A stretch of 64,000 nucleotides of DNA, from NCBI GenBank assembly GCA_000092065.1, contig CP000587.1. One strand, written 5' to 3'. Positions 428-11,700 of this stretch are shown here, in pieces. The notes beneath the pieces were generated by a model. It saw nothing but the letters and a program-made list of their open reading frames with translations, was not told the origin of the DNA and ran no database searches. Source of the stretch: Ostreococcus lucimarinus. Its lineage: Eukaryota. The position numbers were made by a program, and so were the translations under genes. Every line of letters begins with the position of its first letter. The first letter of the stretch is position 1.

Positions 428-595
428 GCGATATGGTGACGTGAGCGGTTTCCGCGAGCGTTTTCGTCAAAAACGCATCAAAACGTTCAATGGCTTGCAA
501 GAGGCGCTAGTCTACAAGCTATCGTGTCACACACCGCGCCTTTTTCGTTCAGACCGCCGTGGAGAAGCAAAAACACACGCTTCGACGATGGCGAC
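428..595. repeat. Left copy of a 168-bp inverted duplication. It covers the 3' end (last ~36 codons plus 3' flank) of the kelch gene.
   Basis: Reverse complement of 428-595 matches 8184-8351 essentially base for base. ORF-track pairs 524..757(+)/7908..8255(-) and 441..746(+)/7634..8623(-) share identical peptides (MSHTAPFSFRPPWRSKNTRFDDGD; SGFRERFRQKRIKTFNGLQEALVYKLSCHTPRLFRSDRRGEAKTHASTMAT). Confidence 0.9.
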
Positions 596-8183: not shown

Positions 8184-8351
8184 GTCGCCATCGTCGAAGC
8201 GTGTGTTTTTGCTTCTCCACGGCGGTCTGAACGAAAAAGGCGCGGTGTGTGACACGATAGCTTGTAGACTAGCGCCTCTTGCAAGCCATTGAACGTTTTG
8301 ATGCGTTTTTGACGAAAACGCTCGCGGAAACCGCTCACGTCACCATATCGC
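8184..8351. repeat. Right copy (inverted) of the 168-bp duplication. On the + strand it carries a kelch 3' pseudo-exon (...SPSSKRVFLLLHGGLNEKGAVCDTIACRLAPLASH*).
   Basis: Same evidence as the left copy. Upstream of 8184 the frame diverges from the kelch protein and stops within 60 codons, so this is a gene fragment and not a second kelch gene. Confidence 0.85.
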
Positions 8352-8457: not shown

Positions 8458-11400
8458 ATGGGCGTCGATCGCGCTCGCGCTCGTAGGTTGACCGAGAGCG
8501 AGAACGATGACGACGACGACCGAAGTCTCGACGCGCGCGAGGAGGTTGGAGATGGTGACGACGAGAGTGACGAAGAAGATGTGGACGGGGATAGTGTTGT
8601 ACGCGCGTCTCTGGAACGCGCAAGCGAGCGAGATGCGGAGATTGCGGATGAGAGGGATACGCGAGTGCGAATACTTCTCATTCGCGAACGGGACGCCGAG
8701 TTCGCGCGAGATCCAAAATTTAAATCGCGATCAATCGCCGAGTTGAACAACGAAGCCGTGCGATATTTGAAAGCCGGAGACGATGTCAAGTGTGTGGTGG
8801 CTTACGCCAAGGTGTTTCGAAAGGTTTCTGAAAACAACGTCACGCACCCGACGCTATACGTGTGCCACTCAAATCGCGCATTCGCGTACTTGAACTTGGG
8901 TCTATTTCAAGAAGCTCTGTGGGATGGCCATCGCGCGCAGACATTGGCGAATGAGCGTTTCACGCAGTTACAAGATGACGACGGGAGTGTCAAGGTTTTC
9001 GTGAAGGGTTACGCGAGGAAGGGTTTCGCGCTCATGGGTTTGCGGGAACCGAAACTCGCAAAGCTCGAGTTTGAGCGCGGATTAACCATGAGCCCGACCG
9101 ATGAGGAATTGAAGCGCGGTTTGGAAGAGGCAACGCAAGCAGTCATTCGTGATTTATACATCGGACGCGGAAAAGAGAAACAATATGCCCTGCCGAGCTC
9201 CGGGAAAACGAGTGAGAGAATTTCGTCGCTGCCGTACTCGGCGCCGCTTCACCGTGTGCATCCTCGCGATATGCTGCCCAACACGCTATTGACCCCATTC
9301 CAAGCCGAAAATGATTATCATCTGAAGGACACGTACAATTATATGACGATTCAAGCCGATATTCGCGTCCCGAAGAGACATTTCAAGGTTTTACAAGACG
9401 ACGTTCGGCGCGCCAAGTTCTCTACGGCGATTAAATGCGCAATCGACAAGATGCACGACGACGCCAAAGATGCACGAGTTTTGAATATCGGTTGCGGTGC
9501 GGGATTAAATACAATGTTGGCGTTGAAACACGGTGCGCATCACGTGACGGCTACCGAGCGCTGGCTGTACCTCGCCATGGCTACGAAGGAGAATTTGTTG
9601 AACAACGGATACAGTGATGACCAAGTCAAAGTCGTGTACAAGCGTCCGACTGATCTCGCGTTGCTTCGCGATGTCCCAATATCGTGCAACGTGTGCGTGT
9701 GCGATGTATTTGACGACGGTTTGCTGAGTTCGGGGATCATTCCCGCCGTTAGGCATGCCTTGGACAAGCTATTGTTGCCAGACGCAGTCGTCATTCCGTC
9801 GAGCGCGACGCTGTACGCCCAAGCCGTCGATATGCGCACGCCCGCCTTTGACGGAATCAATCTCAGCGCGATAGACGGTTACAGATGGCACCCAACGTAC
9901 ATTGCAGGCATTGATTTATTCGAGAACGCGTACATCACTCTGAGCGATCCTGTGCAAGTGTTCCAATTTGACTTCCTCATGCCGCCAGACTGTAGCGAGA
10001 AGAAGACGATTGATTTAACGTTTACGAAGCGCGGCAAGTTCAACGCCGTGGTGTTTTGGTACGAGATGACTTTGATTGATGATGTGAAAATTTCAACAAA
10101 ACCTGGTGGTGAAGATTGTCCTTCTTCGATGCGCGCCGCTGTCCAGTTCATGCCCGGGAAAATATCAATAGAAGAAGGCAGCGTGTTGCCACTCACGTGC
10201 GCGCACAACACAGTCGGTATACAGTTTAGTGTCGAAGATGCAGAGTACGATCAAGTGACGAAAAAAGATGCCAGTTTTCCAAAATATCACTTTCACATGC
10301 TTCGCGATGAGGGGCGTCTGCACGCGTATTCGGACGCCCTCGGGCGTCAAGTTGCGCGAATCAAGGCTCGCGGAGACACGTGCAGGGCGCTCGACATCGG
10401 CACGGGAAGCGGTATACTCGCCATGCTCGCCGCGCGAGCGGGTGCGGATTCCGTCGTCGCTTGCGACACGCATCCATCGCTCGTGAGCGTCGCTAGACGA
10501 AATGTTGCCGCGAATGGTTACGGATCTCAGGTGAGCGTCCTGAAGCGCGACGCGACGCAACTCGAACGCGGCAAGCATGCGCCATACGACGGCGTTAATC
10601 TTATCGTTCTGGACGTCTTCGACGCCGGACTCACCGGAGATGACGTGTTGGACATGATAGAAGCAGCCCGTAAGCAATTGAGCGCATCTACGTGCGCAGT
10701 CGTTCCCGCGGCGGCGACGATTTATTGCGCAGGCATCGAAGCGTACACAAGCGAAGTCGACGGTTTCAACATGAGCGCCTTCAACAAGTATAGATGGGAC
10801 AGCACGTACGAGGCGACGTACATGCGAGACCAGCCTTACCGAGTGTTGACAAAACCCAAAAAAGTATTCGAATTCTTCTTTGATGACTCCCAGAAGAGCA
10901 AGGGCAGGGAAACCGTGCTAAAGATGGAGACAATCGCGCACGGCTACATGAATGCGGTGTGTTTTTGGTTTGATTTGCACATGGACGAAGAAGAGACGAT
11001 TACGACGGCACCGCTAGGGATTGGAAAGGGTGGTACAATTGAAAATCAACGCATTCTCGGCGACTTTGACGGTGCGCATGCGAAAAAGGTCATGTGCGAA
11101 TCTCTTCGCAGAGTTCGAGCGAACATGGCGTCGAATCCACGAAGCGAAGACTTTGAAAGCGACTCTGCGCGCGAGGGATCAAGCGACAGGACCGTTTTTG
11201 TCTCCGATGCCACGTCCTTAGGAGATGATGAATTCGACGACGACGATCGCGAGGAGCACTATTGGGGGCAGGCGCTGCAATACCTCGAACGCGGCGTCCA
11301 GGTGCGCGCGGGAAAGAAAATCGCGCTCTTGGCCAAGCGACAAAACGGCGGCGTGCACTTTAGTTTAAAAGAGGGCGTCGGAAATTGGGTAGGAAAACCA

Positions 11401-11700
11401 CCGTGGAAGATTGAATGGGGCGGCGGCGCGTCCGTGGAGAGCCCACATTTCCAGCGCGTGCACTATTGCCAATTGCTCGTCAACGATTTTCTGATGCGTC
11501 TACGATGCAAACGGTTCGCGCCGATCGAAAAAGACATGAAGATGATTCTCGCGCATTGCGGTGCGCTGTTTCTCGAGCCTCATAGCTTGACTGACATATA
11601 CCATCACTTAGTCATGCTAGAAGTGTACTTTGATTGGGAAGACTTCTCCCCGGGAACGAAGGTTGAATCGATGACGAAGCCGTGTTTGCGCCTGTGCTAA
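8458..11700 (+). CDS. PRMT9-like protein arginine methyltransferase: N-terminal TPR repeats followed by two tandem PRMT modules
   Basis: TPR-like segment (AYAKVFRK...HSNRAFAYLNLGLFQEAL...KGYARKGFALMGL). Module 1 has VLNIGCGAGLNTM...CVCDVFDDGLL. Module 2 has ALDIGTGSGILAM...LIVLDVFDAGLTGDD and a THW-like loop EHYWGQ. The [DE]xFDxxL loop is of the PRMT7/9 type. Confidence 0.75.
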   Translation: MGVDRARARRLTESENDDDDDRSLDAREEVGDGDDESDEEDVDGDSVVRASLERASERDAEIADERDTRVRILLIRERDAEFARDPKFKSRSIAELNNEAVRYLKAGDDVKCVVAYAKVFRKVSENNVTHPTLYVCHSNRAFAYLNLGLFQEALWDGHRAQTLANERFTQLQDDDGSVKVFVKGYARKGFALMGLREPKLAKLEFERGLTMSPTDEELKRGLEEATQAVIRDLYIGRGKEKQYALPSSGKTSERISSLPYSAPLHRVHPRDMLPNTLLTPFQAENDYHLKDTYNYMTIQADIRVPKRHFKVLQDDVRRAKFSTAIKCAIDKMHDDAKDARVLNIGCGAGLNTMLALKHGAHHVTATERWLYLAMATKENLLNNGYSDDQVKVVYKRPTDLALLRDVPISCNVCVCDVFDDGLLSSGIIPAVRHALDKLLLPDAVVIPSSATLYAQAVDMRTPAFDGINLSAIDGYRWHPTYIAGIDLFENAYITLSDPVQVFQFDFLMPPDCSEKKTIDLTFTKRGKFNAVVFWYEMTLIDDVKISTKPGGEDCPSSMRAAVQFMPGKISIEEGSVLPLTCAHNTVGIQFSVEDAEYDQVTKKDASFPKYHFHMLRDEGRLHAYSDALGRQVARIKARGDTCRALDIGTGSGILAMLAARAGADSVVACDTHPSLVSVARRNVAANGYGSQVSVLKRDATQLERGKHAPYDGVNLIVLDVFDAGLTGDDVLDMIEAARKQLSASTCAVVPAAATIYCAGIEAYTSEVDGFNMSAFNKYRWDSTYEATYMRDQPYRVLTKPKKVFEFFFDDSQKSKGRETVLKMETIAHGYMNAVCFWFDLHMDEEETITTAPLGIGKGGTIENQRILGDFDGAHAKKVMCESLRRVRANMASNPRSEDFESDSAREGSSDRTVFVSDATSLGDDEFDDDDREEHYWGQALQYLERGVQVRAGKKIALLAKRQNGGVHFSLKEGVGNWVGKPPWKIEWGGGASVESPHFQRVHYCQLLVNDFLMRLRCKRFAPIEKDMKMILAHCGALFLEPHSLTDIYHHLVMLEVYFDWEDFSPGTKVESMTKPCLRLC

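What the first reader, a model, noticed from the sequence alone, without database searches (positions are those of the whole stretch)
8458..11700. PRMT9-like tandem arginine methyltransferase in which both modules carry D-x-F-D in place of the double-E loop
The architecture (TPR repeats followed by two PRMT modules, the second with a THW-like EHYWGQ loop) matches PRMT9. In both modules the loop that normally supplies the two substrate-Arg-binding glutamates reads CDVFDDGLL and LDVFDAGLTGDD, i.e. Asp instead of Glu at the first position. PRMT7/9 enzymes have restricted product specificity (MMA/SDMA), and this loop governs it. If my reading of the alignment is right, both modules carry the Asp substitution at the first loop position. 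This suggests altered specificity or a pseudo-enzyme module.
Basis: inference. Interest (0 to 1): 0.5.

Follow-up and report, generated by a model that had tools for sequence, protein, structure and literature searches.

The report
Green-algal tandem arginine methyltransferase with Asp-Asp loop
This gene encodes a PRMT7/9-like protein (TPR repeats plus two methyltransferase modules) in which the two glutamates that normally grip the substrate arginine are aspartates in the second, catalytic-looking module; the first Asp holds across the green-algal relatives and may change what the enzyme makes.

Summary
Window 8458-11700 (+) is an intact 1080-aa ORF: TPR repeats, two PRMT modules and a conserved C-terminal extension. 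Alignments to mouse PRMT7, human PRMT9 and T. brucei PRMT7 agree on the loop register. In module 2 both double-E glutamates are Asp (D719, D728), and the THW loop reads H-Y-W. In module 1 the first Glu is Asp (D416), the second is Ser (S425), and THW is lost.

Asp at the first module-2 position occurs in 61 of 62 homologues that cover the loop. The second position varies (D/E/N/H/S/Y).

The architecture is PRMT9-like, but the catalytic signature sits in the second module, the reverse of PRMT7 and PRMT9. The nearest non-green relatives (euglenid, pelagophyte, bacteria) share this order with canonical E...E loops, so E->D is derived.

Most likely, module 2 is an active methyltransferase with an enlarged arginine pocket and module 1 is a non-catalytic partner. 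Precedent: TbPRMT7 E181D stays active and gains dimethylation. Activity is untested, so a pseudo-enzyme or a non-arginine substrate remains possible. I rate it a new variant of a known kind, of moderate interest.

The parts
8458..11700 (+). Intact ORF of 1080 aa: TPR + tandem PRMT modules + C-terminal extension
   Evidence: The ORF listing gives it at these coordinates. Pfam finds two methyltransferase stretches and PRMT_C at 42.1 bits against a cut-off of 27. There are 67 homologues. The AF2 model has mean pLDDT 84.2 and pTM 0.73.
8728..9165 (+). TPR-like helical repeat region (aa 91-236)
   Evidence: Pfam TPR_1 and TPR_2 hits at aa 136-154 are weak and below cut-off. The family profile hits the STIP1 TPR at 4.7e-15. 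AF2 predicts paired helices over aa 93-235. Many homologues have precomputed TPR Pfam hits.
9232..9372 (+). Strongly conserved segment before module 1 (aa 259-305; LPYSAPLH...LLTPFQAENDY...TYNYMT), probably the N-terminal helix that caps the module-1 cofactor pocket
   Evidence: 47% of its columns are >=90% conserved, the highest of any region. Its equivalence to the PRMT1 YFxxY helix is my inference from position.
9373..10242 (+). PRMT module 1 (aa 306-595): Rossmann fold + beta-barrel; candidate non-catalytic partner
   Evidence: It aligns to the PRMT7 N-module Rossmann fold (74 bits) and to the PRMT9 C-module barrel (30.7 bits). G347 and G349 of motif I, D314, R317 and E367 are kept in the query lineage. 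The THW equivalent is S-S-M.
9703..9732 (+). Module 1 'double-E' loop, DVFDDGLLSS: D416 at the first Glu position, S425 at the second
   Evidence: Alignment to PRMT7 ELFDTELIGE. Family column counts are D24/N9/E4/other 4 at position 416 and S33/A4/R3/C1 at position 425.
10243..11382 (+). PRMT module 2 (aa 596-975): the module with the catalytic signature
   Evidence: It aligns to the active N-modules of PRMT7 (75 bits) and PRMT9 (54 bits). With the insert removed it aligns collinearly over 264 residues to TbPRMT7, through the THW loop.
10390..10416 (+). Module 2 motif I (LDIGTGSGI), the AdoMet-binding glycine loop
   Evidence: G648 and G650 are invariant in the family.
10465..10467 (+). Post-I acidic residue D670 (Glu in PRMT1/7/9), predicted ribose ligand
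   Evidence: VVACD aligns with PRMT9 VYACE and PRMT7 CYAIE. The family column is E21/D20, and it is Asp throughout the query's immediate clade.
10612..10641 (+). Module 2 loop DVFDAGLTGD: D719 and D728 at the two double-E positions; F721 and D722 invariant
   Evidence: Column counts are D40/E1 at position 719 and D21/E10/N5/H3/S1/Y1 at position 728. The codons are GAC and GAT, so Glu is one third-position change away.
11014..11241 (+). Variable, acidic, largely disordered insert inside the module 2 barrel (aa 853-928)
   Evidence: pLDDT is below 50 for aa 904-928. Column conservation is 0.28. Its length varies from 0 to about 80 aa among homologues.
11257..11271 (+). THW-equivalent loop H934-Y935-W936-G-Q
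   Evidence: It aligns with TbPRMT7 M-Q329-W-G-Q-A-L-Q, PRMT7 DHWMQ and PRMT9 TCWEQ. Family counts are H40, Y30/H9 and W37, and GQAxQYL is essentially invariant.
11383..11697 (+). Conserved C-terminal extension (aa 976-1080; PPWKIEWGGGASVESPHFQRVHYC...AHCG...), helical, no known domain
   Evidence: 35% of its columns are >=90% conserved. AF2 predicts helices at 996-1017, 1023-1032 and 1041-1058. Pfam finds nothing there. Profile matches past the PRMT core are seen only for green-clade relatives; the non-green two-module relatives stop near profile position 821.

Best explanation
The gene encodes the chlorophyte branch of a wider family of TPR + tandem-PRMT proteins.

The two modules fold into a PRMT7/9-type pseudo-dimer. 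Module 2 is the working methyltransferase. It binds AdoMet through an intact motif I, a post-I acid and the conserved Arg/Asp of the N-terminal helix. It holds the substrate guanidinium between two carboxylates that are Asp (D719, D728) instead of Glu, under an H-Y-W version of the THW loop.

Each Asp is one methylene shorter than Glu, so the arginine pocket is predicted to be roomier. That would shift product or substrate specificity away from the strict monomethylation implied by the automatic 'PRMT7/type III' annotation.

Module 1 (D416...S425, no THW) is a non-catalytic structural or regulatory partner. In this lineage it may still bind AdoMet. The TPR repeats and the conserved C-terminal extension probably recruit substrate.

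Shown here: architecture, fold, residue equivalences, conservation and phylogenetic distribution. Inferred: catalytic activity, arginine as the substrate, and the direction of any specificity change.
For: 1. Residue equivalences are consistent across four independent alignments and fit the AF2 secondary structure.
2. Module 2 keeps the cofactor and pocket residues: D617 40/41, R620 36/41, G648/G650 invariant, an acid at 670 in 41/41, F721/D722 invariant, H934 40/41, W936 37/41, Q938/Q941/L943 invariant.
3. Asp at 719 is fixed (40/41 in the alignment, 61/62 in the wider set), although Glu is one third-position change away. The neighbouring position 728 toggles between D and E. Position 416 in module 1 drifts (D/N/E/P). 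This pattern points to selection for Asp itself in module 2.
4. The nearest relatives outside the green clade have canonical E-x-FD-x-GL-x-G-E-G loops and HW loops in the same second module, and a degenerate first module. Module 2 is therefore the ancestral catalytic module and E->D is derived.
5. Experimental precedent exists for Glu->Asp in this loop being compatible with catalysis and changing the product. TbPRMT7 E181D makes ADMA, and E181D/Q329A makes SDMA (PMC8226133; PMC12153873). The query has Asp at the E181 position and Tyr at the Q329 position.
6. The whole-protein fold matches PRMT7 and PRMT9, including the TPR.
Against: - No activity data exist for any member of the family.
- The published precedent concerns the second Glu only. 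I found no report on a first-Glu->Asp enzyme. From memory, and unverified here, Glu->Asp or Glu->Gln changes in PRMT1 strongly reduce activity.
- The second acidic position is not acidic in 10 of 41 family members (N5, H3, S1, Y1). That is hard to reconcile with a strictly canonical two-carboxylate mechanism across the whole family.
- The His of THW is Tyr in 30 of 41 members.
- Model coordinates could not be inspected, so the pocket geometry and the position of the C-terminal extension are not known.
Confidence: 0.55

Rival explanations
1. The whole protein is a pseudo-enzyme. Module 2 has also lost catalysis because the shortened carboxylates cannot position or activate the guanidinium. The protein then acts as a TPR scaffold, or as an arginine or methyl-arginine binding partner for another PRMT, like the trypanosome PRMT1 prozyme.
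For: Neither module has a canonical E...E pair. The second position is non-acidic in 10 of 41 members, and the THW His is Tyr in 30 of 41. The inactive prozyme chain 6dnz_B appears among the distant PDB hits, which shows the fold tolerates such a role.
Against: Pseudo-modules in this same family drift. Module 1 position 416 reads D/N/E/P, position 425 is never acidic, THW is lost, and R317 is lost in the Trebouxiophyceae-like members. Module 2 behaves in the opposite way, with near-invariant cofactor and pocket residues. TbPRMT7 E181D is active (PMC8226133).
Confidence: 0.15
2. Module 2 is an active methyltransferase whose substrate is no longer a protein arginine. It could be another nucleophile such as lysine, histidine or an N-terminus, or a free guanidino or amine compound. 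The loop change would reflect a new substrate rather than a tuned arginine pocket.
For: The second double-E position varies freely (D/E/N/H/S/Y) while D719, F721 and D722 are fixed. This suggests a D-x-x-D pair rather than the classical E-x8-E clamp. The clade also has unique, highly conserved additions (the pre-module-1 segment and the C-terminal extension) that could build a different binding site.
Against: F-D at positions 721-722 is equally conserved in relatives with canonical E...E loops, and in PRMT7 (ELFD). It is therefore not a new feature. The W-G-Q-A-L-Q segment of the THW loop is identical to that of the arginine methyltransferase TbPRMT7. Both loop positions are acidic in all 21 members listed from the window sequence to P0032, which include the query's own clade.
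Confidence: 0.15
3. The protein is an ordinary PRMT7/PRMT9 orthologue, and Glu->Asp is a conservative, functionally neutral substitution that happened to fix early in green algae.
For: Asp and Glu share the carboxylate. Public pipelines annotate the family as PRMT7 / type III PRMT (K11438). Overall fold and motifs are conserved.
Against: A neutral site would toggle, as position 728 does (D21/E10), yet 719 stays Asp in 61 of 62. Asp at the first position also appears in a second, separate group that includes bacterial proteins, according to the neighbour-joining tree; one search names a Xanthomonadaceae member and one search shows the bacterial context of P0067. In TbPRMT7 a single Glu->Asp change in this loop is not neutral. 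The catalytic module order is reversed relative to PRMT7 and PRMT9, so simple orthology is doubtful.
Confidence: 0.15

Closest known systems
Human/bovine PRMT9 (PDB 6PDM, 8RBK)
   Same: Both have N-terminal TPR repeats followed by two tandem PRMT modules forming a pseudo-dimer. The loop interior D-A-G-L-x-G is identical (PRMT9 TETVDAGLFGEG against LDVFDAGLTGDD). The Foldseek match covers 941 columns including the TPR.
   Different: - In PRMT9 the N-terminal module is catalytic and the C-terminal one inactive (PMC12808985). Here the signature is in the second module.
- PRMT9 has Glu at both clamp positions and T-C-W in the THW loop.
- This protein adds a conserved C-terminal extension of about 105 aa and an acidic insert.
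- Sequence similarity is no higher than to PRMT7.
Mouse and C. elegans PRMT7 (PDB 4C4A, 3WST)
   Same: It is the best overall sequence and fold match (phmmer 2.4e-28, profile 5.9e-57, Foldseek 1.5e-37 with TM 0.70). Both are tandem modules. The F-D after the first acid is shared (ELFD against DVFD). Databases name the family PRMT7.
   Different: PRMT7 has no TPR. Its N-module is active and its C-module is degenerate (LLGEPFF...LLPW). Its loop is E...E with an extra Glu (DTEL), and its THW loop is DHW. It is a type III enzyme that makes MMA only.
Trypanosoma brucei PRMT7 and its E181D and E181D/Q329A mutants (PDB 4M36-38, 5EKU)
   Same: Module 2 aligns collinearly over 264 residues through an identical W-G-Q-A-L-Q segment. 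The natural protein carries Asp at the E181 position and a different residue (Tyr) at the Q329 position. In TbPRMT7 these two positions switch product specificity from MMA to ADMA or SDMA.
   Different: TbPRMT7 is a single-module homodimer without TPR. Its first Glu (E172) is retained in the studied mutants, whereas here it is also Asp. The mutants are engineered, while this state is natural and conserved.
Unnamed TPR + tandem-PRMT proteins of euglenids, pelagophytes and bacteria (e.g. Neometanema P0122, Pelagophyceae KAJ1454446.1, Aquimonas WP_395787530.1)
   Same: They share the domain order (TPR, degenerate module 1, catalytic-signature module 2), and they are the closest profile matches outside green algae.
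   Different: Most of them keep the canonical E-x-FD-x-GL-x-G-E-G and HW loops. Their matches to the family profile stop near position 821 of 1028, before the C-terminal extension. Their module 1 is far more degenerate.

Membership tests
PRMT catalytic core (class I methyltransferase with PRMT beta-barrel) | Motif I glycine loop, post-I acidic residue, and the Arg/Asp of the N-terminal helix that bind AdoMet | tested here: met
   Module 2 has LDIGTGSGI, D670, D617 and R620. Module 1 has NIGCGAGLN, E367, D314 and R317.
PRMT catalytic core (class I methyltransferase with PRMT beta-barrel) | Double-E loop: two invariant Glu, E-x8-E, clamping the guanidinium | tested here: not met
   Spacing and position are kept, but the residues are D719/D728 in module 2 and D416/S425 in module 1.
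PRMT catalytic core (class I methyltransferase with PRMT beta-barrel) | THW loop | tested here: inconclusive
   Module 2 has H-Y-W-G-Q. The Trp and the following GQALQ are conserved and identical to TbPRMT7, but the His position is Tyr; it is Cys in PRMT9 and Gln in TbPRMT7. Module 1 has S-S-M, so the loop is lost there.
PRMT catalytic core (class I methyltransferase with PRMT beta-barrel) | PRMT beta-barrel / oligomerisation subdomain and dimer-like assembly | tested here: met
   Pfam PRMT_C scores 42.1 bits against a cut-off of 27, in two stretches. The Foldseek TM-score to the PRMT7 pseudo-dimer is 0.70.
PRMT catalytic core (class I methyltransferase with PRMT beta-barrel) | AdoMet-dependent methylation of protein arginine | not testable with these tools
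   This needs an enzyme assay.
PRMT9 | N-terminal TPR repeats followed by two tandem PRMT modules | tested here: met
PRMT9 | The N-terminal module is catalytic and the C-terminal module inactive | tested here: not met
   The acidic pair plus the THW-like loop occur only in the second module. Module 1 lacks the second acid and THW. PRMT9 module roles are taken from PMC12808985.
PRMT9 | Closer to PRMT9 than to other PRMTs (orthology) | tested here: inconclusive
   PRMT7 and PRMT9 score almost equally: phmmer 2.4e-28 against 5e-25, profile 5.9e-57 against 3e-51, Foldseek 1.5e-37 against 3.5e-35. Module-level BLAST is ambiguous. No proper tree with bona fide PRMT9 sequences could be built.
PRMT9 | Symmetric dimethylation of SF3B2 Arg508 (CFKRKYL) | not testable with these tools
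   The substrate motif is cited from PMC10202292. No SF3B2-like motif is encoded in the window.
PRMT7 | Two tandem modules without accessory domains, with the N-module active | tested here: not met
   A TPR region and a C-terminal extension are present, and the catalytic signature is in module 2.
PRMT7 | Type III (MMA-only) product specificity, linked to a tight pocket formed by the double-E Glu and the THW-loop residue | not testable with these tools
   The product cannot be assayed here. The sequence argues against assuming it: the positions equivalent to TbPRMT7 E181 and Q329 are Asp and Tyr, and changes at those positions relax monomethylation.

The most novel reading that the evidence does not exclude
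Green algae carry a natural 'double-Asp' arginine methyltransferase. Its enlarged pocket would give a PRMT7-like scaffold a product or substrate specificity not seen in PRMT7 or PRMT9, for example dimethylation, or acceptance of already methylated or bulkier guanidino substrates. It would belong to a previously undescribed TPR + tandem-PRMT family in which the second module, not the first, is catalytic. That family also has bacterial members, and E->D would have arisen at least twice within it.
Probability: 0.3. Interest if true: 0.65.

Novelty: new variant of a known kind. Interest (0 to 1): 0.45.

Why it matters
The two glutamates of the double-E loop are treated as invariant hallmarks of arginine methyltransferases. 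The one well-studied Glu->Asp change, engineered in TbPRMT7, rewires product specificity.

A natural clade that has kept Asp at the first position across the sampled prasinophyte, trebouxiophyte and pedinophyte homologues would be a ready-made test of how pocket size sets MMA, ADMA or SDMA output. In the query's own clade the second position is Asp as well.

It also shows that the 'PRMT7 / type III' label carried by these algal proteins in databases is unverified. The result further points to an undescribed family layout, with the catalytic module second and bacterial members. That bears on the open question of how and when the PRMT7/9 tandem duplication arose. One review states it arose in metazoans and that its origin needs further study (PMC8399567).

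Tried and rejected
Rejected. All alignments agree, the x8 spacing is canonical, and both Asp residues follow the beta-4 strand in the model.
- **Sequencing error or pseudogene.** Rejected. The ORF is intact. There is a single nucleotide difference from three independent contigs, and it lies outside the loops. The state is conserved in homologues.
- **Fetching full-length PRMT9 with a human N-module bait.** This returned only exon-sized fragments, so no module tree with real PRMT9 sequences could be built.
- **Module orthology by BLAST.** Ambiguous.
  - Module 1 against module 2: 129 bits, 31% identity.
  - Module 2 Rossmann against PRMT9-N: 80.5 bits.
  - Module 1 barrel against PRMT9-C barrel: 50.8 bits, against 32.0 bits for the PRMT9-N barrel.
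  - A circular permutation and an independent duplication both remain possible. The simple 'same order' model is least favoured.
- **afdb50 fold search.** Unavailable.
- **Literature on first-Glu->Asp PRMT mutants.** Nothing found.
- **Primary papers (Debler 2016, Jain 2016, Hadjikyriacou 2015 and 2017).** Not held. The TbPRMT7 facts are therefore cited from reviews.
- **Literature on this family in prasinophytes or Chlamydomonas.** Nothing relevant found.
- **SF3B2-type substrate motif in the window.** None.
- **Organism names for the nearest homologues.** Not available; they are marine metagenome sequences.


Full report
**1. The observation**

Window 8458-11700 (+) is a single uninterrupted ORF of 1080 aa. 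Pfam finds two methyltransferase stretches and two PRMT_C barrel stretches (42.1 bits, cut-off 27), plus sub-threshold TPR hits.

The gene differs by one nucleotide (11684, C1076F) from three independent marine metagenomic contigs. The loop codons are therefore not errors.

**2. Register of the loops**

phmmer against PDB sequences gives mouse PRMT7 (4c4a, 2.4e-28) and PRMT9 (6pdm and 8rbk, about 5e-25) as the best hits. I searched with each module alone, with a 41-sequence family profile, and with module 2 after removing its disordered insert. All give the same register.

| Position | Module 1 | Module 2 | PRMT7 | PRMT9 | TbPRMT7 |
|---|---|---|---|---|---|
| first Glu | D416 | D719 | E144 (ITELFDTELIGEG) | first Glu (VTETVDAGLFGEG) | E172 (LSEIFGTMMLGES) |
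| second Glu | S425 | D728 | E153 | second Glu | E181 |
| THW loop | S-S-M | H934-Y935-W936 | D-H-W | T-C-W | M-Q329-W |

- The following W-G-Q-A-L-Q in module 2 is identical to TbPRMT7.
- The E-x8-E spacing is preserved.
- In the AlphaFold model (pLDDT 84.2, pTM 0.73) both Asp residues sit directly after beta-4, in regions with pLDDT 89-96.
The second D of 'D-x-F-D' is already Asp in PRMT7 and PRMT9. The second true clamp position is Asp in module 2 and Ser in module 1.
- Module 2 also has Asp at the post-I ribose-binding position (D670), where PRMT7 and PRMT9 have Glu.

**3. Anatomy**

- aa 1-47: disordered.
- aa 91-236: TPR-like helical repeats. The family profile hits the STIP1 TPR at 4.7e-15.
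- aa 259-305: a very conserved segment before module 1.
- aa 306-595: module 1.
- aa 596-975: module 2, with a variable acidic insert at aa 853-928.
- aa 976-1080: a conserved helical C-terminal extension with no Pfam match.

Foldseek matches the whole tandem unit to PRMT7 (E 1.5e-37, TM 0.70) and to full-length PRMT9 including its TPR (8rbk, 3.5e-35, 941 columns).

**4. Is it lineage-wide?**

The homologue search found 67 proteins. The named ones come from Pycnococcus, Myrmecia, Micractinium, Coccomyxa, Picochlorum, Auxenochlorella and Apatococcus. A pedinophyte appears in the deeper search. IMG annotates the family as PRMT7 / type III PRMT, K11438.

Column counts for module 2:

| Position | Counts in 41 aligned sequences |
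|---|---|
| 719 (first Glu) | D40, E1 |
| 721, 722 | F and D invariant |
| 728 (second Glu) | D21, E10, N5, H3, S1, Y1 |
| 934 | H40 |
| 935 | Y30, H9 |
| 936 | W37 |
| 617 | D40 |
| 620 | R36 |
| 670 (post-I) | E21, D20 |

- In the wider set, position 719 is Asp in 61 of the 62 homologues that cover the loop.
- Module 1 behaves like a decaying site. Position 416 is D24/N9/E4/other, position 425 is never acidic, and THW is lost. R317 is replaced in the Trebouxiophyceae-like members.
- D719 is encoded by GAC, so Glu is one third-position change away. Position 728 toggles D/E, yet 719 stays Asp. I read this as selection for Asp itself. That is an inference.

**5. Wider family and module order**

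A HMMER profile search of 1.84 billion representatives found 1257 proteins at E<=1e-30. I mapped the module-2 HMM onto the top 150.

- The closest non-green relatives are proteins of about 830-960 aa with the same layout: TPR, a degenerate first module, and a second module. Most carry canonical E-x-FD-x-GL-x-G-E-G and HW loops in that second module.
- Named members are a euglenid (Neometanema), a pelagophyte (KAJ1454446.1) and, unexpectedly, bacteria: Aquimonas WP_395787530.1 and a Xanthomonadaceae MAG.
- P0067, the distant 28%-identity hit, sits in an unmistakably bacterial neighbourhood with PrkA/DUF444/SpoVR and a GGDEF protein.
- A neighbour-joining tree of module 2 puts the green-algal Asp-first sequences in one clade, with one Glu exception (P0054). 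A second Asp-first group, which includes P0067 and the Xanthomonadaceae-type protein, lies next to an E...E bacterial clade. On this rough tree, E->D at the first position is derived and arose at least twice.
- In PRMT7 and PRMT9 the N-terminal module is catalytic and the C-terminal one inactive (PMC12808985; PMC8399567). This family has the reverse order.
- Whether that reflects a permutation or an independent duplication is unresolved. Module 1 against module 2 scores 129 bits at 31% identity. The module 1 barrel resembles the PRMT9 C barrel (50.8 bits) more than the N barrel (32.0 bits).

**6. Mechanism**

- *Established:* each double-E glutamate makes two hydrogen bonds to the substrate guanidinium. 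In TbPRMT7 an E181D mutant stays active and forms ADMA, and E181D/Q329A forms SDMA. [quoted passage not shown]
- *Shown here:* the natural protein has Asp at the E181 position, Tyr at the Q329 position, Tyr at the F71 position and Asp at the E172 position.
- *Inferred:* module 2 is a working methyltransferase with a roomier arginine pocket, so it should not be assumed to be type III. Module 1 is the non-catalytic half of the pseudo-dimer. The TPR and the C-terminal extension recruit substrate.
- *Main weaknesses:* there is no assay, and no precedent for the first-position change. Ten of 41 members lack an acid at the second position.
- *Rivals:* a fully inactive scaffold, a changed non-arginine substrate, and a neutral substitution. 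Each gets about 0.15.

**7. Comparison and novelty**

The protein works like a PRMT7/9-type tandem enzyme, and its loop interior (D-A-G-L-x-G) is PRMT9-like. It fails defining features of both families: the clamp residues are not Glu, and the catalytic module is second. It is also equidistant from the two by sequence and fold.

I found no description of this family, or of a natural Asp-Asp loop, in the searchable literature. That library is incomplete. I classify it as a new variant of a known kind, with interest 0.45.

Noticed in passing
window 428-595 and 8184-8351: There is a perfect 168-nt inverted repeat (100% complementary) with 7588 nt between the arms. The right arm ends 107 nt upstream of the PRMT-like start codon. 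In three metagenomic contigs with 99.9% DNA identity, the 7.6-kb segment between the arms lies in the opposite orientation. This is either a repeat-mediated inversion polymorphism or an assembly flip. By coordinate mapping from the contig gene calls, the arm appears to contain the 3' end of an ACBP + Kelch gene.
   Followed up: partly
L004:8001-10646 (P0067); the P0121 and P0150 clusters: TPR + tandem PRMT7/9-like proteins occur in bacteria: Aquimonas WP_395787530.1, a Xanthomonadaceae MAG (HEY1138386.1), and P0067. P0067 lies beside a PrkA/DUF444/SpoVR operon and a GGDEF gene. The RefSeq protein is named as ribosomal protein L11 methyltransferase. Some of these bacterial proteins also have Asp at the first double-E position.
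   Followed up: partly
window 11383-11697 (aa 976-1080): A C-terminal extension (PPWKIEWGGGASVESPHFQRVHYC...AHCG...) is among the most conserved parts of the protein. It has no Pfam match. Relatives outside the green clade do not align to this part of the family profile. The near-invariant H997, H1002, C1004 and C1034 could form a metal site; this is speculation.
   Followed up: partly
window 9232-9372 (aa 259-305): The segment just before module 1 (LLTPFQAENDY...TYNYMT) is the most conserved stretch of the whole family, with 47% of columns >=90% conserved. Yet its first half, up to about aa 290, is modelled with low or moderate confidence (pLDDT about 40-75). Its role is unexplained.
   Followed up: no
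window 11684: There is a single nucleotide difference (G against T; Cys1076 against Phe) between the window and all three metagenomic contigs that encode the otherwise identical protein.
   Followed up: yes
P0001-P0031 clusters (homologues of window 8458-11700): Public pipelines label this algal family 'protein arginine N-methyltransferase 7' or 'type III protein arginine methyltransferase' (K11438). The residues that enforce type III behaviour in TbPRMT7 are changed here, so the product type in the label is unverified.
   Followed up: yes
window 11014-11241 (aa 853-928): An acidic, mostly disordered insert interrupts the module 2 barrel just before the THW-like loop. Its length ranges from 0 to about 80 residues among homologues.
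   Followed up: no
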